A model generated the notes under the pieces. That model was given only the letters and a program-made list of their open reading frames with translations, did not search any database and had not been told where the DNA came from. This document shows, in pieces, positions 11,696 through 33,597 of a DNA stretch of 64,000 bases (position 1 is its first letter; every line of letters starts with the position of its first letter). The translations under genes and the position numbers were made by a program. The stretch spans positions 96,001 through 160,000 of the forward strand of contig OZ246423.1 in NCBI GenBank assembly GCA_965231215.1, read 5' to 3'. The DNA is from Candidatus Altimarinota bacterium (GTDB lineage Bacteria > Patescibacteriota > Gracilibacteria > UBA4473).

Positions 11696-12385
11696 ATGAA
11701 AAATTTCTTTGCCGCTCTAGTGGTGTTTGCTGGGAGCTTTATCTCACTTTCTGCACTAGCTCATCAAGCCGATAGTGATGGAAGTCGTGATCACTATCAT
11801 CCTCATTATCATCAAAACCACAGCATTTCTGATCATTTTAGAGGCAGTCGTAACTACGATTATAACCAATACCAGTACAAAACTCACAATAGAGTTGATG
11901 TTTTTGAGGCCTTTAATAATGGAAATGCTGTACTTTTTACGCATGATAATGATCACCATTTTGATTTTTTCAAAAAATCTCAGTATGAAAAACCTACTTA
12001 CAATCATCAAAATAAATGTAACCTTTATCCAAAACAAGCTACTTACTACTCACGAGAAGTTCCCGTTTACCGATATGCTCTGATTGCCCCTCCACAAAAA
12101 AATGTAAATCAAACTTACCACCAACCGCCTTACGCTTATTCAAGCTGTGCAGGCAAAAATTGTTGCCAAGACTGTAAACCCGCTCGACCTTGGCAGCTAA
12201 AAAGTCTTGTTGGCTACCAAAACCGAAGCTACCGAGCCCCTTCTGAATACAACCCAGACTGCTACAAAAACCGAGTTTATACTCCAAACGCCTACCAAAA
12301 CTACCGCCACTATGATGATAGGCATAGATACCAAAGCCACTCACCGTACAAGACTCACAAAACTTACACCTGTGATAATTGTTAA
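11696..12385 (+). CDS. Secreted His/Tyr/Cys-rich low-complexity protein
   Basis: Sec signal peptide ending ALA; H/Y/N/Q-rich mature part; followed by a terminator. Confidence 0.75.
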   Translation: MKNFFAALVVFAGSFISLSALAHQADSDGSRDHYHPHYHQNHSISDHFRGSRNYDYNQYQYKTHNRVDVFEAFNNGNAVLFTHDNDHHFDFFKKSQYEKPTYNHQNKCNLYPKQATYYSREVPVYRYALIAPPQKNVNQTYHQPPYAYSSCAGKNCCQDCKPARPWQLKSLVGYQNRSYRAPSEYNPDCYKNRVYTPNAYQNYRHYDDRHRYQSHSPYKTHKTYTCDNC

Positions 12386-12409
12386 GCCCCAGCTCTCGAG
12401 ATTTACAAC

Positions 12410-12440
12410 AAAACCCAAGACTAAGATCCTTGGGTTTTTT
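12410..12440. terminator. Bidirectional intrinsic terminator
   Basis: AAAACCCAAG...CTTGGGTTTTTT between convergent genes. Confidence 0.75.
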
Positions 12441-13200
12441 GTTTGCGCTCCCAGATAAACGATTGAAAAAACGAAGCATAAAGCAAAAACATGATCGCCA
12501 TCAGGTCAAATATTTGAGCTAGCTTAAACCCAAAAAATACGGAAGGTTCTCCCCCTCTCCAGAACTGCAGTACAAAATCAATAAGAAAGAAATACAGGAG
12601 TGTTTGATAAAAAAGTTTCCCTGGAATCTTACTAAAACTATTAAAATTCTTTCGCACCCACTGTAATAAAAAAAAGTGGCAGATAAATCCATACAAGGTT
12701 ACTGGATGAACAGGGTTGAGAATTTCTACTCCAAAAGTTTCATACTGAACTCCCCACGGCAGAATCGTTTCGGTACCATAGACTCTTCCCGTCAAAAACC
12801 CAGCCAGATCAACTACCAGCACCGCTAACAAAAAAGACGGCATTCCTACATCTATCCATTTATAAAAAGGTTTATTATGCCTTTTAAGGTCGATATACAT
12901 AGTGAGTAAAAACCCCGTCAACACCCCAAAGAAATTTAGTTCTCCTTCCCAAAACGCGGCGTAGGTAAAAATTCCGTATTGATCAAAGGCTCCAACATTC
13001 AGTATTACCGCTACTAACCTTCCCAAAAGAATCCCTCCTAAAAGCCAGCGCCAATAGTGATGTAAGAAAAAATCTTTAGAAAAATTATGCTGTTCTAACG
13101 CTCTATAATAGTGCCAAGAGCCTAAGGCAAACGCCAAACTCAAAAATATCCCGTAAATTTTCAGGGCAAAAACACCAAAGTTTATCTGTGAAAAATTCAT
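12421..13200 (-). CDS. lgt: Divergent prolipoprotein diacylglyceryl transferase (Lgt-like)
   Basis: IYG, GRL, YG...LPWGV and HPVTLY motifs with a multi-TM pattern; likely start is ATG 13200; several catalytic positions are substituted (see findings). Confidence 0.75.
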   Translation of the reverse strand: MNFSQINFGVFALKIYGIFLSLAFALGSWHYYRALEQHNFSKDFFLHHYWRWLLGGILLGRLVAVILNVGAFDQYGIFTYAAFWEGELNFFGVLTGFLLTMYIDLKRHNKPFYKWIDVGMPSFLLAVLVVDLAGFLTGRVYGTETILPWGVQYETFGVEILNPVHPVTLYGFICHFFLLQWVRKNFNSFSKIPGKLFYQTLLYFFLIDFVLQFWRGGEPSVFFGFKLAQIFDLMAIMFLLYASFFQSFIWERKQKTQGS

Positions 13201-13310
13201 CGAACCTATTTTTAAGTATCCCCAAACAATCTTCAACTCAAAAACCATTTTAATACTCAGAGTCTTGTGGGTTCCCTAAGAATTAAAATACCTATTTTAG
13301 AAAGGGGTTT

Positions 13311-13338
13311 CGTAGGGAGAAACTAGTTTTCCCCTACG
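13311..13338. repeat. Palindromic hairpin (REP-like or terminator)
   Basis: CGTAGGGAGAAACT / AGTTTTCCCCTACG inverted repeat just after the 388-aa ORF. Confidence 0.5.
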
Positions 13339-13343
13339 CATTC

Positions 13344-14510
13344 TTACACCCAATAAAAAATTACCGGGAACTGCACTGAGTACACAAATATCGCCAATCC
13401 TGTACTTCCTAAAACGATAATTCGATCGCGCCAAGAAAACCCAGGATAAAAACGATAAAAGTAAAATGAAATCAGCATAATCATCGATAATCCAATCATA
13501 TACCAAATCAGTGACGAATAGAGAAAAAAACTACTTCTCTCAATATCCTTCTCAAAAACAATTTGGGCCAAATTCCAAATCAAAAATCCGCCACAAACCA
13601 AAAATAAAAAGCCAAAAGTAAGATAGAAAATATTAACCAGTGCCTCAAAAAATTTAATCTCTGAGACTGTTTCTTTAAGCCCCTCCGTATCAATTTTGGC
13701 TAGTTGAACCTGAAGATCAATAAGTCCTTTACTAATAGCCTTATCAAACTTGGTTCCAACTGCCTGAAATTTAGATCTACGGCGATTAATTTCTTCTTTT
13801 AGTTCGGCCGGAATATTGGCATCCTGCAAGAAAATTTCATCACTCGTAATTTGAGTCAAAAGGCGCTTTGTGAGACTTTTAAGATGGGAAACTGAATTCG
13901 AATGTTTCAGCCTCATTAAAAGGTTAATCCGCTCCTCAATTTCTCGTTTTTTTCCAGAATCAATAAACTCAGAGTTTTCTTCTAGCAGTGGAATTACTTC
14001 AGAAAGCACTGAATCAATCTTTTCCATCATAAATTTCCGCTCTTCTTCATTCGCCTCTACCGCTTCTTGAACCTCATCATGCTTTACTTCTACTTTTTTA
14101 CCTTTCTTTTTGGCTCGTCTTTCATCCAGTTTAATTTCTACCTGAAGACGGTCTTCAAGTTCTTTTTCAATTCCAGCGGCTTTTTGAGCCTCTTTTTGGC
14201 TCGGCGCCATAGTGGTATCGATCAGATAGTACACCTCTAATTCATATTCCCTTCTCAATTTTTTATACGCTCCGTAACGATCCTCGGCTTCTATCGTTCC
14301 TCGAATCTTTTTATGCATTTGGTTCATAGCCTCAAAGTCAAAGACTTTAAGCCCTGAAGCCATTTGCTCATCTTTTGGTTCTTCAAGAGTCAAAATAGAC
14401 AACCCCCCTGCCTTTAACTTATCTCGTGCAGCATCCAAAGATGCGGCACTCACATACCCAGAAATTTGTTTTCCTTCGGGAGTTACGGCCTGAAAATAAT
14501 ATTTTCTCAT
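13344..14510 (-). CDS. Membrane protein with two tandem PilC/GspF-type N-terminal domains, a coiled coil and 3 C-terminal TM helices
   Basis: YYFQAVTPEGKQISGYVSAASLDAARDKLKAGGL and FDFEAMNQMHKKIRGTIEAEDRYGAYKKLRREYEL. Confidence 0.7.
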   Translation of the reverse strand: MRKYYFQAVTPEGKQISGYVSAASLDAARDKLKAGGLSILTLEEPKDEQMASGLKVFDFEAMNQMHKKIRGTIEAEDRYGAYKKLRREYELEVYYLIDTTMAPSQKEAQKAAGIEKELEDRLQVEIKLDERRAKKKGKKVEVKHDEVQEAVEANEEERKFMMEKIDSVLSEVIPLLEENSEFIDSGKKREIEERINLLMRLKHSNSVSHLKSLTKRLLTQITSDEIFLQDANIPAELKEEINRRRSKFQAVGTKFDKAISKGLIDLQVQLAKIDTEGLKETVSEIKFFEALVNIFYLTFGFLFLVCGGFLIWNLAQIVFEKDIERSSFFLYSSLIWYMIGLSMIMLISFYFYRFYPGFSWRDRIIVLGSTGLAIFVYSVQFPVIFYWV

Positions 14511-14603
14511 AAAAATATAATCCCGCGATTATAGCATAAATTACATTAATCTTCCAGCTCCTAGAGCGGGTTTAGACAAAGTTTTGATTGACTTTAATTA
14601 TTC

Positions 14604-16211
14604 TTATTTTATTGAGGCTCCCACAAAATCTCTAAACAACGGATGTGGCTCAAATGGTCTGCTTTTCAGTTCTGGATGAAACTGTCCCGCTACCATAAAT
14701 TTATGTCCTTTTATCTCTACAATCTCTACGAGTTTTGATTGTGGATTTCTTCCAGAAATTACAAAGTCACTCCCTTCAAATTTTGGTAAAAATTCATCAT
14801 TAAATTCATATCGGTGTCGGTGTCGCTCAGATATTTTTGTCGTTTTATAAACAGAATAAGCTTTAGTCCCTTTCCTAATTTCACAATCATAAGCTCCAAG
14901 CCGCATGGTCCCCCCTTTTCTTCGAATATTTTTTTGTTCAGGAATAAAGTGAATCACATGATGTTTCGATTTGCCTTCTTTATCAAATTCTTCTGATGTA
15001 GCATCTTTAAGACCTAAGGCATTTCGAGCATATTCTATAGCCATAATTTGGCTTCCAAGGCACAACCCTAGATAGGGTTTATTATTGGTTCTACAGTAGT
15101 TGGCGACCTGAATTTTCCCCTCAATACCTCGATTTCCAAATCCTCCGGGGACTACCACTCCAGCCACACTTTTTAGTTTTTCCCATTCATCCGTATCTTT
15201 TTGTTCAATCAGTTCTGTATCGATCCATTCAATATTTACTTTTTTCCCATGGAAATAACCGGCCGATTTAGCGGCCTCAATCACCGATAAATAAGCGTCA
15301 TCAAGGTCGTTGTATTTTCCAGCCAGACCAATCGTAATTTCACTTTTAGTTCTGATAATTTTTTGAACCCCTGCCTCCCAGGATTCGAGGTTAAATTTTT
15401 TCGTTTTAAGATTTAGTTTCCGAGCCAATACATCTCCTACTCCATGTTTTTCAAACCGAAGTGGCACTTCATAAATAGACTTTACAGTTTCGGCTGGTAT
15501 CACACATTCTTCTGGCACATCGCAAAAGTACGCGACTTTTTTCAGCAATTTCTTCGGAATTTTTACATCGGCTCTTGTAAAAATCATATCTGGATGAATT
15601 CCTACACGTCTAAGTTCTCGAACTGACAATTGAGTTGGTTTAGTTTTCAGTTCTCCAGAGGCCGCTAAATATGGCAGTAAGGTTAAATGAAGTGAAACCA
15701 AATCACTTCCATATTTATTTTTCATCTGCCTAATCACTTCCAAAAATGGTTCTCCTTCAATATCCCCAACCGTTCCTCCAATTTCTACTACTAGCACATC
15801 TACCTCCATTTTTTTCGCAGCTAGTTCCACCTTCTGAATAATCTTATTGGTAATGTGTGGCACTACCTGGATCGTTCCACCAAGGTACTTCCCTTCTCTT
15901 TCTTCGGCTAACACTTCACTATACACTCTTCCTGTCGTTACCGTACACACCCCGCTCAATGGCGTATCAATAAATCTCTCATAGTGTCCCAAATCTAGAT
16001 CCGTTTCACTTCCATCATCCAACACAAAAACCTCTCCATGCTGAAACGGACTCATCGTCCCTGGATCTACATTCAAATAAGGATCAAGCTTCATTATAGC
16101 TACTTTGACCCCTCCGGATTTGAGTATTGCCGCAGTACTAGAAGCCACTATTCCCTTTCCTAAACTACTACAAACTCCACCCGTAACGAAAACAAATTTT
16201 GTATTAACCAT
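14604..16211 (-). CDS. pyrG: CTP synthase
   Basis: FVTGGVCSSLGKG, DPYLNVDPGTMSP, GLCLG, ERHRHRYE, QFHPE. Confidence 0.99.
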   Translation of the reverse strand: MVNTKFVFVTGGVCSSLGKGIVASSTAAILKSGGVKVAIMKLDPYLNVDPGTMSPFQHGEVFVLDDGSETDLDLGHYERFIDTPLSGVCTVTTGRVYSEVLAEEREGKYLGGTIQVVPHITNKIIQKVELAAKKMEVDVLVVEIGGTVGDIEGEPFLEVIRQMKNKYGSDLVSLHLTLLPYLAASGELKTKPTQLSVRELRRVGIHPDMIFTRADVKIPKKLLKKVAYFCDVPEECVIPAETVKSIYEVPLRFEKHGVGDVLARKLNLKTKKFNLESWEAGVQKIIRTKSEITIGLAGKYNDLDDAYLSVIEAAKSAGYFHGKKVNIEWIDTELIEQKDTDEWEKLKSVAGVVVPGGFGNRGIEGKIQVANYCRTNNKPYLGLCLGSQIMAIEYARNALGLKDATSEEFDKEGKSKHHVIHFIPEQKNIRRKGGTMRLGAYDCEIRKGTKAYSVYKTTKISERHRHRYEFNDEFLPKFEGSDFVISGRNPQSKLVEIVEIKGHKFMVAGQFHPELKSRPFEPHPLFRDFVGASIK

Positions 16212-16544
16212 TACGGGCTTTAAGTGTAACCCGGAATGTTAGGAAATCAAAAAAAATAGTGTAGTTTTTACAATAAACTATTTTATTTCAATGAATGCAG
16301 GATACACCTACCCCTACATTAAATAGGCAAATGCAACGAGGAGGAAGCGCCACTAAGCAATACAGAAATCAAAAAATTAAACGAAACCATGAGAACTTCA
16401 AAGAAAGTAAGATATATTGCAAGCAGATCGGATTTTTAGTTACAAATAAGAGTTAGATTGATAACTTTTTAAAATAACTATAAAGACACTTTCCAAAGTG
16501 TTTGTTTTATGATATAATGAGCTATTAAAAATAAATACAAACCC

Positions 16545-18206
16545 ATGAAATCCCACCAACATATCGTTTTTGCTCCAGAGGCAAAGTACATTTTTAAAGA
16601 CCCAGAAGCAGGGCGAGATCATCACACAGGGAGTGGCGAAAAAACTATCCCAAAAATTGAAGATCTAATGAAACAGCATCATGAAAATCCTACACCTGAA
16701 ACTCAGGCGGCTATTGATGCTTTTATTAAACAAAAAATTCAAGAAATCCAAAGAGGACGTGATCCAAAAAATGGAGTATTAATGGCAGAAGCGTTAAATC
16801 AACAAATTGCAGATGCAAAAGCAAAATATCCAAATGCCGCTGAAGTCGTAGAGAAACATGCTCCAGCAATTCAAAAACATTTGGATAAAACAGATGAAAA
16901 AGACCAACCAGCGGCTAAAGATGCCTTGAAACCTGAAGAAGTAACCAAACTTCAAGAAGAAGCGAAGACTATTAAACCTGAAGAATTTTTAAAAAAAGAC
17001 AAAAAGTCTCAACTGGCTATGGTAACTGAAGGGGGTGAAACTCCAGGAGCCATTAAACCTGGAAAAGAAATAACCTTTAAATTTGATGAAGCGGGAAATG
17101 AAGATCTCTATAAGAAAACAACCCTTGGTACAGTGATGCCAGCCAACGTACGAGCTGTAGAAGCTGATGGAGTCAAATATATTCGTCGAGGCATGACTGG
17201 TGAATTTTTTAATGAGCAAGGCGTTCGTCTTAAAATTCATAACGGAACAAAAGTAAAAGTTGCTTCAGAAGGGGGATACATAAAAGAAGACAGTGAAGAG
17301 TTCAAAAAATTACAGGATGCGGCTAAAGCCAAAGCAGATACAGCGATTAAACAGCACGGTGTAGAAAAAGGACATAAATTCTACGAAAGGTATAACAAAG
17401 TGGCTCAAATGGCATCAGAAAAAGGAGTTGATCCGCAACTCGCTCTACTTTTGGCTAAAAGTAAATCTTTCAATGCCATTGCCGATGATAAAGACTTTTT
17501 ACCAAAATTTGAAGACGCTCTTACAGAATTCCACAGGGGAACTGACGGTTCAAGTAAAGATAAAATTTATGATAAAGATGGGAATTTAAACTTAAATGAA
17601 GCATCAAATTGGATTCGAACTTTTGTAGAGGATAATGAAACGGGAAAAGAAATACTAAAAGCTATAAAAAACAAAGAAGGTAAAGCTCTTTACGATAACA
17701 AAGATATTGAAGAGGCTTTCAGCCTAACAAAAGCCACTCAGCTTAGTAAAGCTGAATTTGCAAAGTTTGCCTGGGAGCAGGGTAAAAAAGTAGAAGCTAA
17801 ATATCCAGGCGTTCCAACAGAGGCCGTATTTGCAACTGCTGGTCTAGAGTCTGGATGGGGAACTAGTTCCTTAGCTAAAGACGTTAATGCAGTTTTTGGA
17901 ATAGGAGGCAATAATGGGAAAGGAAGATTTTCTACTGGTGATGGGCATACAAAAAGAGGTTATGATTCACTAGAAGCATCCTTTATGGATTATGGAAGTT
18001 TTCTTCAAGGAAAACGATATAAAGGCATAGTTACAAAGTACGCACCAATTTTTAAAAAAATTCCAATAGGAAGTGCAGAAAGGAAGCCGCATGTAAGACA
18101 ATTCTTAACAGAAATTGCACAAGCTGGATACAACCCTAAAGGAGCCACCTATGCAGGTCATGTAATGAAAATGCTTGAAGGAAGCATGGCTAATAATATA
18201 ACCTAA
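16545..18206 (+). CDS. Large protein with a C-terminal GH73/FlgJ-type peptidoglycan hydrolase domain
   Basis: ATAGLESGWGTS...NAVFGI, YDSLEASFMDY, AGY; no signal peptide. Confidence 0.75.
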   Translation: MKSHQHIVFAPEAKYIFKDPEAGRDHHTGSGEKTIPKIEDLMKQHHENPTPETQAAIDAFIKQKIQEIQRGRDPKNGVLMAEALNQQIADAKAKYPNAAEVVEKHAPAIQKHLDKTDEKDQPAAKDALKPEEVTKLQEEAKTIKPEEFLKKDKKSQLAMVTEGGETPGAIKPGKEITFKFDEAGNEDLYKKTTLGTVMPANVRAVEADGVKYIRRGMTGEFFNEQGVRLKIHNGTKVKVASEGGYIKEDSEEFKKLQDAAKAKADTAIKQHGVEKGHKFYERYNKVAQMASEKGVDPQLALLLAKSKSFNAIADDKDFLPKFEDALTEFHRGTDGSSKDKIYDKDGNLNLNEASNWIRTFVEDNETGKEILKAIKNKEGKALYDNKDIEEAFSLTKATQLSKAEFAKFAWEQGKKVEAKYPGVPTEAVFATAGLESGWGTSSLAKDVNAVFGIGGNNGKGRFSTGDGHTKRGYDSLEASFMDYGSFLQGKRYKGIVTKYAPIFKKIPIGSAERKPHVRQFLTEIAQAGYNPKGATYAGHVMKMLEGSMANNIT

Positions 18207-29091: not shown

Positions 29092-30246
29092 ATGTTTAAA
29101 AAAATCGCATCACTCATTCCCGGAAAGAAAAAGGCAAATGACGTGCAAAACGTTAAAAAAGTAACCAATACTGCCGACAATATTATTTCAAAAGCCGTTG
29201 CAGACGCCGGTAATATTTCAAATATCACACTCTCAAAAGAAGAACAAAAAGCACTACTTGAACAACGAAAAAAAGTGCCGTTCTACATCATAGTGATGAA
29301 GTATAGCTCTATTTTACTGTTTGCTATACTGTTTGGAGTAGCGCTTTTTGTTAAGGCTGACCTAGACACAAACAACACCTACTTCGGAGCCCTTGGACTA
29401 CAAGATAATACCGGCTCTAAATACAAAAAACTAAAAACAGAAAACAATCAATTCAAAGAAGAAATCAACCGTATTGAATCAGAAACTCAGGAACTTATTA
29501 CCCGAATGGAAGAAGGAAACTACGGTATCTACACCGACCAAATTGATGAAATTAAACAACAACAAAAACACTGGTTTACCGCTTCTGAAATTACAACCAA
29601 CATTGAAACTGGCGAAAGTGAAGTAAAAACTCATTACGGAATCCTTGATGCAGTCAATGAAATGATTGATTTCTTTCAAGATGCAAACTACCAAATCAGG
29701 TATTTTGCCAAAAAAGAGAAAGAACTGCTTGGAGACAAATGGGAAACTTGTAGAAACCCTTATATTTCAGCGGCTAAAAAAGCTGAAATCAAATGTCCTC
29801 CACCAATCATGATTGCCATGAAAAATGAAGTTAATGTGCGAAGTATAAATATTAATCCTACGGGCGCCAATATTAGTGTGAATGTAAGCGATATTTTGAG
29901 CAAAGTATTCACCCTTGGATCTGAATTTGTAGACATGATGAATAGTTTTCCATTTTACCGAGATGGCTCTATCCGAAGTTTTACTCGTAGAAAAGCTTCT
30001 AGTGGTGAAGAAAATATGGAAATTTCACTTCGGCTCGAGTTCCAAGATCAAGGCGAAGACGCAATTCCAGATCCAGCCGATGAAAACTTCCAGTATTTTG
30101 AAGCCTGGAAAAATCTAAACAAAACTATCAACAATACACTCGAACAAGCTAGAGCCCAAAGCGCTAAAAGCCAAAGTGAAAATAGCTCAGCCTCAGAAAA
30201 AAGTTCGGCTCCTAGAACTAGAACTTCTAATACTTCTCGTAACTAA
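29092..30246 (+). CDS. PilN-like bitopic membrane protein
   Basis: One TM, coiled coil and beta-rich C-domain; first gene of the pilB-pilC cluster. The call is mainly contextual. Confidence 0.5.
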   Translation: MFKKIASLIPGKKKANDVQNVKKVTNTADNIISKAVADAGNISNITLSKEEQKALLEQRKKVPFYIIVMKYSSILLFAILFGVALFVKADLDTNNTYFGALGLQDNTGSKYKKLKTENNQFKEEINRIESETQELITRMEEGNYGIYTDQIDEIKQQQKHWFTASEITTNIETGESEVKTHYGILDAVNEMIDFFQDANYQIRYFAKKEKELLGDKWETCRNPYISAAKKAEIKCPPPIMIAMKNEVNVRSININPTGANISVNVSDILSKVFTLGSEFVDMMNSFPFYRDGSIRSFTRRKASSGEENMEISLRLEFQDQGEDAIPDPADENFQYFEAWKNLNKTINNTLEQARAQSAKSQSENSSASEKSSAPRTRTSNTSRN

Positions 30247-30252
30247 TTTAAT

Positions 30253-30972
30253 ATGCCTCCTGTTGTTAAAAAAAATCGAAAACAAACCCTTTCTAGGCAA
30301 GAAAAAATACGTCGAAACCCAATCCCTTGGGTCGTCGTATACATAATCTGTATAGGCATCTTATACTTTATTTATGGCGATATTGGCAGCTGGCTCTCAA
30401 AACGGTCAGAAATTGGCGATCTAGAACCTTCTAACGCTCAAATGGAAACACGAAAAAAGACCGTTCAAGCTAAAAAAGCTGAAGTAGAAACTCAGTTTAA
30501 TGATCAAGCTGCTGAATTCCTGAGAGAAGAAAAACAACTTTTCCCAGAGCATATTGATACTTCCAGAATCGCTCAGATCATTGAAATATACTCAATTTTA
30601 CTACAAAGAAATAGTTCTAGTAGTTCTGTAGTAGAGCTAAGTTCATTAAATGTGGGCCTTACCACACCCGCAGAAACTGCTAACTTTGACGAAACGCCGC
30701 TCAACCTTTCTCTAACGCTCGATAAAGTCAGCTTCAAAAAATATATTAAGTTCCTTCAAGACGGAAAAGTAGCAGATGAACTAAGAAACCGTGTAATTAG
30801 TAGAAAAAATAAAGGGGATGCCGCTTCAATTGAGTTTTTGGAAAATAATAGACTCCCCATTATGTCTATCAGATCTATTAACATGACTGAAGACCGATCT
30901 TCAGTTGATAGACCACTCCAAACCTATAACGTTCAAATGCAAGTGGTTCTTTATTCACGATCTCAACAATAA
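30253..30972 (+). CDS. PilO-like protein
   Basis: N-terminal TM, coiled coil, 'LFP', FKKYIKFLQ and IMSIRSIN patterns; operon context. Confidence 0.6.
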   Translation: MPPVVKKNRKQTLSRQEKIRRNPIPWVVVYIICIGILYFIYGDIGSWLSKRSEIGDLEPSNAQMETRKKTVQAKKAEVETQFNDQAAEFLREEKQLFPEHIDTSRIAQIIEIYSILLQRNSSSSSVVELSSLNVGLTTPAETANFDETPLNLSLTLDKVSFKKYIKFLQDGKVADELRNRVISRKNKGDAASIEFLENNRLPIMSIRSINMTEDRSSVDRPLQTYNVQMQVVLYSRSQQ

Positions 30973-30984
30973 CCCACATTTTTG

Positions 30985-32232
30985 ATGCCTACACAAGGAA
31001 ATGCCCTAAAGAAGCTGAAAGAAGCCATTATTCGAGGAGAAGTCCCTGCTATCCTGGAAGGAACGATGCTCCTTTCTCTAGAAAAAGGGGCTTCAGATAT
31101 TCATATTGAACCTCGTAGGAACAATGTAGAACTTCGTCTAAGAGTAGATGGGGTATTGACTCATATTGTAGAGTACCCAAATAACATGCATCCAGGTTTG
31201 GTGTCTAAGACCAAACTGATGTCGAATCTTAAGATTGATGAATCTCGAGTGCCTCAAGATGGACGTATTTCTACTTGGGTTGGCGAAAAAGAAGTGGATC
31301 TACGGGTCTCAACTCTACCAACCGTGAATGGAGAAAAAATCGTAATGAGGGTTTTGGATAAATCGAAAAAAATTCCAACCTTAGATAAATTGGGTATTGT
31401 TGGAAGAAATCTCAAACTCTTTCAATTCGCTATTGAACAGCCCAATGGAGTGATTTTAACCTCTGGACCGACTGGGTCTGGAAAAACAACCACGATGTAC
31501 TCAGCCATGAGTTATGTAAATAGTCCTGAGGTAAACATCATGACGCTTGAAGATCCGGTGGAAAATCAAATGGAAGGACTCAATCAAAGCCAGATGAAAC
31601 CTCTCATTGGGTATACTTTTGCTTCGGGGTTACGTACGGCTCTCCGTCAAGATCCTGACATCATTATGGTGGGGGAAATCCGGGATAAAGAAACCATTGA
31701 TATTGCTATTGAAGCCTCCCTTACAGGACATCTGGTACTCTCTACCATCCATACCAATTCAGCGGTAGAAACCATTACCCGTATTCTCAACATGAAAGTA
31801 CCAGACTTTCTGCTTACCGCTGCCGTAAATCTGATTATTGCCCAAAGACTTTCAAGACGCCTTTGCCCTTACTGTAAACAGCCTTCTAAACCCAGTCCTG
31901 ATGCGATTAAAAAGGTAAAAGAAGCCTTTAAAGTTTTTAAGCCCTATGAAGGATTTGATACCTCTATCTTTACTGATCCTAAATTCTATGTAGCTAAAGA
32001 AGGCGGATGTGAAGAATGTGAAGGACAAGGATACAAAGGCCGAATCGGTATTTATGAAATTTTAGTAATGAGCGAACCTATCAAAAAAGCTATTCTAGAA
32101 GGAATGCCTTCACTAGAGGTTCAAAGAGTCGCCCAAGAAGACGGTATGATCACCTTAGAACAAGATGGTTTGATCAAGGTTATGCAGGGCGTAACTTCTA
32201 TGGAAGAGGTTTACAAACTTGTTAAAGAGTAG
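30985..32232 (+). CDS. pilB: Type IV pilus/GspE-family assembly ATPase, short form
   Basis: ASDIHIEP, PQDGR, GPTGSGKTT, EDPVE, RQDPD, TGHLVLSTIH, tetracysteine motif. Confidence 0.95.
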   Translation: MPTQGNALKKLKEAIIRGEVPAILEGTMLLSLEKGASDIHIEPRRNNVELRLRVDGVLTHIVEYPNNMHPGLVSKTKLMSNLKIDESRVPQDGRISTWVGEKEVDLRVSTLPTVNGEKIVMRVLDKSKKIPTLDKLGIVGRNLKLFQFAIEQPNGVILTSGPTGSGKTTTMYSAMSYVNSPEVNIMTLEDPVENQMEGLNQSQMKPLIGYTFASGLRTALRQDPDIIMVGEIRDKETIDIAIEASLTGHLVLSTIHTNSAVETITRILNMKVPDFLLTAAVNLIIAQRLSRRLCPYCKQPSKPSPDAIKKVKEAFKVFKPYEGFDTSIFTDPKFYVAKEGGCEECEGQGYKGRIGIYEILVMSEPIKKAILEGMPSLEVQRVAQEDGMITLEQDGLIKVMQGVTSMEEVYKLVKE

Positions 32233-32244
32233 TATAATCAGGAG

Positions 32245-33597
32245 ATGGCAGAAAATATAAATCAAAATCCAAGCCCTCAGCCACAAGTCCAATCAGGACT
32301 TGGGGGAGGCGCTGCCGCAAACCCTTTTGAAGGGGTACAACTTCCAAATGCTTTTAATAGCCCTGCTCAAGGGACAGTGCCACAAGCTCAAAATACTAAC
32401 GCCGTTACAAACGTAGCCAACCAATCTAACACCAATGGAAATGAAACTATTGTCTTAGATATTAAAGAAGACAAGACCAAGAAAATAGAAGCCCAAGAAG
32501 AAGCCGCACCATCAATATTGGATGCTATTAACAACTATTTGATCAACCTCTCTGGGATTAAACTAGATGAAAAATTACTTTTCTTCCAGCTTCTTGGATC
32601 AATGGTAGGAGCTGGACTTCCAATTATTGATGCCCTCAATCTTTTGATTGCTCAGACTAAGAATGAAAAATTCAAACGAGTAATCACCGATATGCGACAC
32701 CAAATTGAAGATGGGGAAAGTCTAGCCGCTGCCATGCGGAATAATGATGATGTATTTGATGAAGCCACGTGTTCCGTAATTGAAGCCGGTGAAAAATCCG
32801 GGAAACTGAACGCCATTCTAAAAGAACTAGTAGACCAATACGAACAACTCAGCACCCTTACTAAAAAAATGAAATCAGTAATGACCTACCCCGTAGTGGT
32901 AATCATTACGATGTTTGTACTTACTGGTGTAGTCCTTATTTTTGTAGTACCAAAACTAGAAGAACTTTTCGGTGGGGCGAGTAACCTTCCCCTTCCAACC
33001 CGAATTCTGATTACGGGTAGTAATATTATGCTCAGCTACTGGTACTATATCATCATTGGGATTATTGGATCTGTATATGCCTTCTTTAAATGGAAAAAAA
33101 GTAAGGTTGGAGGGAAACAATGGGCTGGATTACTACTCAGAGCGCCCATATTTGGGCAGATCCTTCAAAAAATGATTCTGACTCGAGTAACTCGTATTTT
33201 TGGATTTCTTATTTCAGCTGGAGTCCCCGTAGTAGAAAGTCTCAAAATTGCTTCACATATTGCCGAAAGTCCAATGTACCAAGAAAAACTTCTACTAGCT
33301 GCAGACGATCTAACCAAAGGTATCTCTATTGCCGAAAACCTTTCTGATGATGAAAGACTCTTTCCTACTATGCTCGTAAATATGATGGCCATTGGAGAAA
33401 AAACAGCTTCTCTTGATACCGTCATGGGGAAAGCCGCAGACTTTTATAAAGAAGAACTTGAACGAAAAATTGATGGTCTATCTAAAATGATGGAACCCAT
33501 TATTCTGGGAATTATTGCCTGTGGGGCCGTATTTATGATTTTAGCAATTTATCTCCCAATCCTGAAAATGAACGACCAGGTTGTTGGTGGATTTTAA
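32245..33597 (+). CDS. pilC: Type IV pilus platform protein (GspF family)
   Basis: AGLPI..AL, GE.SG.L, TYP, LPLPT, GEKT..L, EP, AIYLPI; low-complexity N-terminus. Confidence 0.95.
   Translation: MAENINQNPSPQPQVQSGLGGGAAANPFEGVQLPNAFNSPAQGTVPQAQNTNAVTNVANQSNTNGNETIVLDIKEDKTKKIEAQEEAAPSILDAINNYLINLSGIKLDEKLLFFQLLGSMVGAGLPIIDALNLLIAQTKNEKFKRVITDMRHQIEDGESLAAAMRNNDDVFDEATCSVIEAGEKSGKLNAILKELVDQYEQLSTLTKKMKSVMTYPVVVIITMFVLTGVVLIFVVPKLEELFGGASNLPLPTRILITGSNIMLSYWYYIIIGIIGSVYAFFKWKKSKVGGKQWAGLLLRAPIFGQILQKMILTRVTRIFGFLISAGVPVVESLKIASHIAESPMYQEKLLLAADDLTKGISIAENLSDDERLFPTMLVNMMAIGEKTASLDTVMGKAADFYKEELERKIDGLSKMMEPIILGIIACGAVFMILAIYLPILKMNDQVVGGF

What the first reader, a model, noticed from the sequence alone, without database searches (positions are those of the whole stretch)
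13344..14510. Apparent PilC fission: the N-terminal domain is missing from pilC but present twice in a stand-alone membrane protein
Seen: this ORF starts with two tandem ~45-aa units matching the PilC/GspF N-terminal pattern (F/Y.Y.A...G....G.i.A.s...A...L...gl), then a coiled coil and 3 TM helices. The PilC at 32245 lacks this domain and begins with ~90 aa of Q/N/P/A low-complexity sequence. Known: cytoplasmic PilC domains contact the motor ATPases. Inference: a separate adaptor or regulator subunit of a modified type IV pilus motor.
Basis: partly seen in the sequence, partly recalled or inferred. Interest (0 to 1): 0.7.

Follow-up and report, generated by a model that had tools for sequence, protein, structure and literature searches.

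The report
Membrane protein with two PilC N-domains
A small uncultivated bacterium keeps the little N-terminal domain of the pilus platform protein PilC, twice over, on a separate membrane protein while its PilC proteins lack it, but comparison across relatives shows this is an old, loosely linked arrangement and not a simple gene split.

Summary
The 388-aa ORF (13344-14510, minus strand) starts with two tandem beta-beta-alpha-beta units. They are homologous to the PilC/GspF N-domain (Pfam 38.1 PF28597, T2SSF_N). Long helices and three TM helices follow. Both PilC genes of this 1.33-Mb genome lack the domain, and a six-frame scan finds it nowhere else.

The "fission" reading is only partly supported. 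The protein belongs to an old family found in 155 of 301 genomes of its class. In 35 loci it sits next to lgt in 28 and pyrG in 23, and never next to pilB or pilC. PilC without the N-domain is the usual form in this class, including in lineages without this family. In 18 genomes a relative coexists with a full-length PilC. Three genomes have a short relative but no detectable PilC. Published work on PulF shows the N-domain is peripheral and dispensable.

Best guess (about 0.45): a membrane-anchored accessory that presents T2SSF_N domains to the still unknown partner of PilC's N-domain. A pilus-unrelated envelope role is nearly as likely. No partner was identified.

The parts
13344..14510 (-). 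Whole ORF, 388 aa: tandem T2SSF_N domains, helical middle, three TM helices ('X' in this report)
14364..14510 (-). T2SSF_N repeat 1 (residues 1-49), beta-beta-alpha-beta; the best-conserved part of the family
   Evidence: TIGR02120 positions 1-46; 45.0 bits to the canonical PilC-N HMM; hhalign E 1.1e-9; AF2 E2-9 E15-22 H25-34 E38-43
14217..14348 (-). T2SSF_N repeat 2 (residues 55-98), more diverged
   Evidence: 14.4 bits to the canonical PilC-N HMM; AF2 E55-62 E68-75 H78-88 E92-98; internal repeat score
13701..14204 (-). Charged helical middle (residues 103-270), 40% K/R/E/D
   Evidence: AF2 helices; composition; only generic helical-bundle fold matches
13881..13913 (-). Family signature RLKHSNSVSHL (residues 200-210); R200 L201 S204 N205 H209 L210 are invariant in 23 sequences
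   Evidence: position; a related motif is visible in the 455-482-aa class relatives (by eye)
13359..13670 (-). Membrane module (residues 281-384) with three TM helices; C-terminal FPVIFYW motif
   Evidence: hydropathy; AF2 helices 281-318, 333-354, 360-384; alignment
12421..13248 (-). lgt (prolipoprotein diacylglyceryl transferase), conserved downstream neighbour
   Evidence: PF01790, E 1e-22; adjacent in 28 of 35 loci
14604..16211 (-). CTP synthase-like gene (pyrG by reading the translation; not scanned against a family library), conserved upstream neighbour
   Evidence: translation; adjacent in 23 of 35 loci
32245..33597 (+). PilC without the N-domain: 100-aa non-homologous N-terminus, then two T2SSF repeats
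   Evidence: PF00482 E 3.3e-54; GspF profile from position 58; hhalign from residue 101; composition
30982..32232 (+). Short (416 aa) PilB-type ATPase directly upstream of pilC
   Evidence: PF00437 E 7.7e-126

Best explanation
What is shown. X is a conserved inner-membrane protein of one class of Patescibacteria. NCBI and atlas labels on its relatives read Gracilibacteria, Peregrinibacteriota and Altimarinota. Its N-terminus carries two cytoplasmic copies of the T2SSF_N domain, the small beta-beta-alpha-beta domain that normally opens PilC/GspF. Next come a charged helical region with an invariant R-L-x-x-S-N motif and a three-helix membrane anchor. The family is old in the class and is inherited vertically in a pyrG-X-lgt gene order. 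It is not a recent piece broken off this genome's pilC.

What is inferred. X most likely holds T2SSF_N domains at the cytoplasmic face of the membrane, where they bind the same partner that PilC's own N-domain binds in other bacteria. That partner is unknown. On this view X is an optional accessory or tuner of the type IV pilus machinery, not an obligate missing part.
For: Domain identity. Same secondary-structure order in AF2 models of X and of a canonical PilC.

Topology. The only known context of the domain is the cytoplasmic N-terminus of platform proteins. The R-rich loop at residues 353-363 fits an N-in topology (sequence; inference).

Constraint. Repeat 1 is the most constrained part of a fast-evolving protein. 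X is about 30% identical across its family, while the neighbouring pyrG is 70-87% identical.

Uniqueness. In G000 the domain occurs only in X. In the family it occurs only in X orthologues: 38 of 43 genomes, 55 of 56 matches cross-checked.

Phyletic hints of a pilus link.
- In family f5 the same 5 of 12 genomes have both PilC and an X-like protein, and 7 have neither.
- None of 19 listed genomes without any PilC match has an X-like protein.

Family restriction. The C-terminal module always follows about 100 N-terminal residues. It has only 110 matches in 1.84 billion representatives, so the architecture is one coherent family.

Literature. The PulF N-domain is peripheral, sits on a flexible linker, is not needed for stability or oligomerisation, and its deletion lowers but does not abolish function (PMC10790770, section 8 read in full). 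This fits a detachable accessory module.
Against: - No pilus gene lies next to X or an X-like gene in 0 of 35 loci. The neighbours are lgt (28 of 35) and pyrG (23 of 35), often with touching or overlapping ORFs.
- G002, G406 and G669 have a short X-like protein but no PF00482 match. They do keep T2SSE ATPases.
- Many pilus-bearing lineages lack the family: f153 0 of 40, f162 3 of 20, f166 2 of 16, f2 8 of 40.
- The co-occurrence counts come from related genomes, so they reflect few independent events.
- No binding partner was identified by any method here.
- The function of the T2SSF_N domain is itself unknown.
Confidence: 0.45

Rival explanations
1. The N-domain was split off PilC, and X is the obligate trans-acting subunit that restores it to an N-truncated PilC motor.
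For: Complementary domain content in G000 and throughout family f1. None of the 115 ORFs of at least 200 aa in the 30 f1 pilB loci, PilC orthologues included, matches the N-domain HMM (best E 0.25), while 15 of 15 positive controls match. All N-domain matches in f1 fall in X.
Against: - N-truncated PilC occurs without X: 12 of 12 PilC matches in 5 closed X-less genomes start at profile position 36-62. Family f153 has PilC in 40 of 40 genomes and X in 0 of 40.
- X-like proteins coexist with a full-length PilC in 18 of 20 genomes where one was listed.
- Platform proteins work without the domain. PulF lacking it is still functional. The ComGB model of 332 positions begins at PilC residue 110.
- X is not in a pilus operon.
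Confidence: 0.15
2. X has nothing to do with pili. It is an envelope or membrane-biogenesis protein that reuses the T2SSF_N fold as a general interaction module. Its real partners are suggested by its conserved operon-like position between pyrG and lgt.
For: The pyrG-X-lgt order is kept across several families of the class, with X and lgt ORFs abutting or overlapping. X-like proteins are present in 3 genomes without detectable PilC. X is never adjacent to pilB or pilC.
Against: The domain is otherwise known only from platform proteins (Pfam name; TIGR02120). PilC and X-like are lost together in 7 of 12 f5 genomes. Conserved gene order among housekeeping genes in reduced genomes need not mean shared function (general knowledge).
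Confidence: 0.3
3. X-type proteins are themselves a minimal alternative platform for PilB/PilT-family ATPases. They replace PilC in some lineages.
For: G002 (100% complete), G406 and G669 have T2SSE ATPases and a short X-like protein, but no T2SSF match.
Against: X lacks the Cyto1 and Cyto2 T2SSF repeats, which are the parts modelled to contact the ATPase (PMC10790770 passages). G000 has two ordinary PilC genes. Absence of T2SSF in draft genomes may be an assembly gap or divergence.
Confidence: 0.05

Closest known systems
N-domain of GspF/PilC/PulF platform proteins (Pfam 38.1 PF28597 T2SSF_N; TIGR02120 positions 1-46)
   Same: Sequence-homologous domain of about 45 aa with the same beta-beta-alpha-beta order. 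It sits at the cytoplasmic N-terminus of a polytopic inner-membrane protein.
   Different: Two tandem copies instead of one. It is followed by an unrelated helical and three-TM module instead of the two T2SSF repeats. The gene lies outside pilus loci.
Full-length PilC of other Patescibacteria (loci L020-L034)
   Same: The X family profile finds their N-termini at positions 1-47, and their N-terminal HMM finds X.
   Different: They are about 400-aa proteins with one N-domain plus Cyto1, TM and Cyto2. The neighbouring ORFs read like PilB/PilT ATPases by eye (not scanned).
Platform proteins that naturally lack the N-domain (ComGB type; PulF with residues 2-54 deleted)
   Same: The window's PilC resembles these. 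The ComGB model (332 positions) aligns from its position 3 at PilC residue 110. PulF without the N-domain is stable, oligomerises and still works at lower efficiency.
   Different: The window's PilC has a 100-aa non-homologous, partly low-complexity N-terminus in place of the domain.
455-520-aa and 283-322-aa X-like proteins of sister families in the same class
   Same: Tandem T2SSF_N, a helical middle with a related R-(I/L)-K-x-S-x-N motif (by eye), 2-3 C-terminal TM helices, and mostly the same pyrG/lgt neighbours.
   Different: Only profile positions 1 to about 100-300 align. The middle and membrane parts differ in length and sequence.

Membership tests
T2SSF_N domain-containing proteins (PF28597) | Significant sequence match to the domain | tested here: met
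   PF28597 is precomputed on 43 of 45 homologues, including the window protein. TIGR02120 positions 1-46, E 4.4e-7. Own HMM 45.0 and 14.4 bits. hhalign E 1.1e-9. The local Pfam copy lacks this model.
T2SSF_N domain-containing proteins (PF28597) | Three strands and one helix in the order beta-beta-alpha-beta | tested here: met
   AF2 models of X and of a canonical PilC give the same element order and lengths. PulF is described as one helix and three strands. No 3D superposition was possible.
GspF/PilC platform protein (T2SSF, PF00482) | Two T2SSF cytoplasmic repeats | tested here: not met
   No PF00482 match at E up to 1. hhalign against a PilC profile aligns only the N-domain.
GspF/PilC platform protein (T2SSF, PF00482) | Encoded with pilB/pilT and pilins in a pilus locus | tested here: not met
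   0 of 35 loci have PilB or PilC within 1.5-2 kb.
Fission product of PilC (split gene) | Complementary domain content within the genome | tested here: met
   G000: both PilCs lack the domain, and only X has it. Family f1.
Fission product of PilC (split gene) | Phyletic complementarity: X present where PilC lacks the domain, and absent where PilC has it | tested here: not met
   18 of 20 genomes with a listed full-length PilC also have an X-like protein. X-less closed genomes have only N-truncated PilC, 12 of 12 matches.
Fission product of PilC (split gene) | The two parts interact physically | not testable with these tools
Needs binding assays.

The most novel reading that the evidence does not exclude
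In this class of ultrasmall bacteria the platform's N-domain has been outsourced. A dedicated membrane protein presents two T2SSF_N domains to the pilus motor, one for each of the pseudo-repeated Cyto domains or for neighbouring ATPase subunits. N-truncated PilC machines would then be tuned in trans, and one X could serve both pilus systems of the cell. X would be the first stand-alone subunit built from the N-domain, and it would give a handle on that domain's unknown function.
Probability: 0.2. Interest if true: 0.7.

Novelty: new variant of a known kind. Interest (0 to 1): 0.45.

Why it matters
The role of the N-domain of PilC/GspF is an open point in type IV filament biology. In PulF the domain is peripheral and dispensable but improves efficiency (PMC10790770), and no partner is known. 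A natural protein that carries only this domain, duplicated and tethered to the membrane, is a clean reagent for finding that partner. It occurs in organisms whose PilC has lost the domain. Type IV pili matter for the episymbiotic lifestyle of cultivated Patescibacteria (abstracts listed). If the link to pili is false, the finding is still a conserved class-specific membrane protein family of unknown role that sits next to lgt.

Tried and rejected
- PDB by sequence, single protein and profile: only chance-level rows (Pup E 0.38; YmoA E 0.42).
- Foldseek against the PDB on the whole model: 0 matches at E up to 0.001. The best rows were eukaryotic ribosomal protein chains at E 0.018.
- VIA-align wide search: best Z 10.3 (BDLP stalk, residues 145-274). 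Other rows were generic helical bundles, BAR domains and membrane helices. All are below the tool's stated noise level for helical proteins. The N-domains were barely tested by this run.
- Complex prediction with X 1-100 as partner, PilC 60-450 and PilB 1-416: verdict 'no answer', score 0.01 against a mark of 0.32, controls not run. This is no evidence either way.
- hhalign of f1 PilC against canonical PilC, to test whether the conserved I-L-D-I strand upstream of Cyto1 is a relic of the N-domain's third strand. The alignment starts only at residue 101, so there is no support.
- X as a diverged PilC paralogue: rejected. Nothing beyond the N-domain aligns, and the C-terminal module has no relatives outside the family.
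- Promoter and terminator scan of 12300-16600: promoter-like sites were fewer than in shuffles (7 against a mean of 11.2). Nothing usable for operon structure.
- Protein atlas on residues 1-100: only short T2SSF_N fragments at scores below 0.8.
- Literature. Searches for PilC/platform/N-terminal domain, for CPR type IV pili, and for 'T2SSF_N', 'GspF N-terminal', 'PilC N-terminal', 'N-domain of PulF' and 'PF28597' found no paper on stand-alone T2SSF_N proteins. From I saw listings and abstract starts only. PMC12632996 passages say nothing on the PilC N-domain. Supplements were not opened, and those of PMC10790770 may hold more on the N-domain.
- Expression (sequencing runs) was not tried.

Rows dropped.
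- A1 uses 23 of the 45 homologues.
- A2 and A6 omit the 292-aa L031 ORF.
- A4 omits L052.
- A5 omits L037 and L038 (they run off the locus), L048 (no PilC) and L052.
- Searches list only 150 of 703 and 150 of 252 match rows. Counts of full-length PilC are therefore lower bounds.

Full report
**What is there.**

The window lies in a closed 1.33-Mb genome that is 99.3% complete. The ORF at 13344-14510 is on the minus strand and encodes 388 aa.

Several results identify its first 100 residues as two copies of the PilC/GspF N-domain:
- NCBIfam's GspF model matches residues 4-49 with its positions 1-46 (E 4.4e-7, two stretches). The window's PilC (32245-33597) matches the same model only from position 58.
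- I built an HMM from the first 55 residues of 15 ordinary PilC proteins of other Patescibacteria. Those proteins were found because the X family profile hit their N-termini. The HMM scores X residues 1-49 at 45.0 bits and 55-85 at 14.4 bits.
- hhalign between the X family and a canonical PilC alignment aligns 43 N-terminal columns (probability 96.4, E 1.1e-9) and nothing else.
- 43 of 45 homologues carry the precomputed Pfam PF28597. My local Pfam lacks this model. The atlas names it T2SSF_N, Pfam 38.1.
- AF2 on a 23-sequence alignment (pLDDT 78.8) gives two beta-beta-alpha-beta units at 2-43 and 55-98, helices from 103 to 270, and three membrane helices. An AF2 model of a canonical PilC has the same unit at 2-43 before a low-confidence linker.
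- Hydropathy confirms three TM segments.
- The internal repeat alone is modest: 10 of 1000 shuffles reach its score.

**The PilC side.**

The genome has two PilC genes. The second, 410 aa at about 512 kb, also begins with a non-homologous His/Pro-rich stretch.

hhalign places the start of homology of the window's PilC at residue 101, which corresponds to canonical position 57. Residues 1-66 are 58% Q/N/P/A.

A six-frame scan of the whole genome with the canonical N-domain HMM finds only X (E 4e-17). The next hit is at E 0.68.

**The family and its spread.**

X has 45 relatives of 35-100% identity and about 388 aa in the 5.8-billion-protein set. One is labelled Candidatus Gracilibacteria.

I also searched a profile of residues 101-388 alone against 1.84 billion representatives. 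It finds only 110 proteins at E up to 1e-3, of which 48 are at 1e-30 or better. In full-length hits the match always begins near residue 100. The membrane module therefore never occurs with another N-terminus.

In 301 genomes of the class, 155 have a match at E up to 1e-5. Full-length matches occur only in the organism's own family f1, in 37 of 40 genomes plus G000. Other families have variants:
- proteins of 455-520 aa that match profile positions 1 to about 225-300;
- proteins of about 400-420 aa that match positions 1-135;
- proteins of 283-322 aa that match positions 1-107.

All the variants I read have tandem N-domains and 2-3 C-terminal TM helices.

**Gene context.**

I examined 35 loci with X or X-like genes: 15 from the phylum search and 20 fetched from f1.
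- lgt is adjacent in 28 and pyrG in 23.
- PilB or PilC is adjacent in 0.
- The only BLAST hits from canonical PilC are 43-46-aa alignments to X's own N-domain, in 3 loci.
- In sister families the pyrG, X and lgt ORFs abut or overlap.
- lgt is PF01790.
- X evolves fast. It is about 30% identical across f1, against 70-87% for pyrG and 44-65% for lgt in the same loci.

**Test of the fission idea.**

Within f1 the pattern is clean.
- 42 of 43 genomes have the PilB orthologue.
- In 28 of the 30 fetched loci a PilC follows it on the same strand. One locus is cut by a contig end, and one has its PilC on the other strand.
- None of the 115 ORFs of at least 200 aa in those loci matches the N-domain HMM (best E 0.25). 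15 of 15 positive controls do.
- A search of the 43 f1 genomes with the N-domain alignment gives 56 matches in 38 genomes. 55 of them coincide with X orthologues or their contig-end fragments. One, in G678, lies in a 390-aa frame that I could not cross-check.

Across the class the pattern breaks in both directions.
- I used a profile spanning the N-domain and the start of Cyto1. 20 of the 150 listed rows (of 252) run from position 1-2 to at least 105, which means a full-length PilC, in 20 genomes. By family: f4 has 8, f6 has 4, f169 has 3, f163 has 2, and f9, f8 and f155 have 1 each. 18 of these 20 genomes also have an X-like protein.
- Conversely, in five closed genomes without an X match at 1e-5, all 12 PilC-length matches start at profile position 36-62. 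Family f153 has PilC in 40 of 40 genomes and X in 0 of 40.

Loss of the N-domain from PilC is therefore the common state of the class. It does not depend on X, and X does not exclude a full-length PilC.

**Hints for and against a pilus link.**

For a link:
- In f5 the same five of 12 genomes have both PilC and an X-like protein, and seven have neither. The seven belong to two genera.
- None of 19 listed genomes with no PilC match has an X-like protein. A twentieth, G462, does have a T2SSF fragment.

Against a link:
- G002 (100% complete), G406 and G669 carry a short X-like protein but have no PF00482 match. They do have T2SSE ATPases.

These genomes are related to one another, so the counts reflect few independent events.

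**What is known.**

In Klebsiella PulF the N-domain (residues 2-54) is joined by a flexible linker and is peripheral in all oligomer models. It is not needed for stability or self-interaction. Its deletion lowers but does not abolish secretion and pilus assembly (PMC10790770, section 8 read in full; passages). The same paper models the ATPase contacting Cyto1 and Cyto2, not the N-domain. No partner of the N-domain is reported there.

I found no paper on stand-alone T2SSF_N proteins.

G000 has five T2SSE-family ATPases, including a tandem PilT-like pair, so it does build pili. The only PilM_2 match is marginal.

**Verdict.**

However, X is an old, vertically inherited family in a pyrG-X-lgt context and not a coupled fission product.

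My estimates for its function:
- About 0.45: a membrane-anchored presenter of T2SSF_N domains that acts as an optional accessory of the pilus machinery.
- About 0.30: an envelope role unrelated to pili.
- About 0.15: the strict trans-complementation reading.
- About 0.05: an alternative minimal platform.

It is a new architecture built from a known domain, in a narrow uncultivated group. It is moderately interesting, mainly as a route to the unknown function of the N-domain.

Noticed in passing
window 32245-32550 (PilC residues 1-100); alignment A5: In f1 PilC orthologues the N-terminus varies from about 0 to 115 low-complexity residues. A short motif, (D/E)-x-(I/L)-(I/V)-L-D-I at window residues 67-73, is nearly invariant about 30 residues before Cyto1 (L71 and I73 conserved in at least 90% of 26 sequences). 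Its role is unknown. hhalign does not align it to the N-domain's third strand.
   Followed up: partly
window 30982-32232: The PilB next to this PilC is only 416 aa, and its Pfam T2SSE match covers residues 28-411. It therefore seems to lack the N-terminal extension of longer PilB/GspE proteins. The genome's second PilB-like frame is 569 aa. Both the motor and the platform of this locus are thus N-terminally minimal.
   Followed up: no
window 29092-30972: Two ORFs (384 and 239 aa) directly upstream of pilB have no Pfam match. By position they may be the PilM/N/O-like alignment parts of this pilus system.
   Followed up: no
G002, G406, G669 (handles): These genomes have T2SSE ATPases and a short tandem-T2SSF_N membrane protein, but no T2SSF (PilC) match. 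Either PilC is unassembled or too diverged, or these ATPases work without a classical platform.
   Followed up: partly
G525:C1:36075-37094: Both T2SSF repeats of this PilC lie in a 698-aa open frame, much longer than usual. The same genome has a lone N-domain match in a 211-aa frame at C1:748502-748630.
   Followed up: no
window 11696-12385: A 229-aa ORF with a signal-peptide-like start and a very His/Tyr/Asn/Gln-rich sequence. It has no Pfam match and weak relatives in only 2 other same-genus loci.
   Followed up: no
class-wide searches: Several families of the class (for example f162, f153, f166) show many in-frame TGA codons inside PilC and X-like matches, up to 20 per gene. This fits the known recoding of TGA in part of this class. 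G000 and f1 show none.
   Followed up: no
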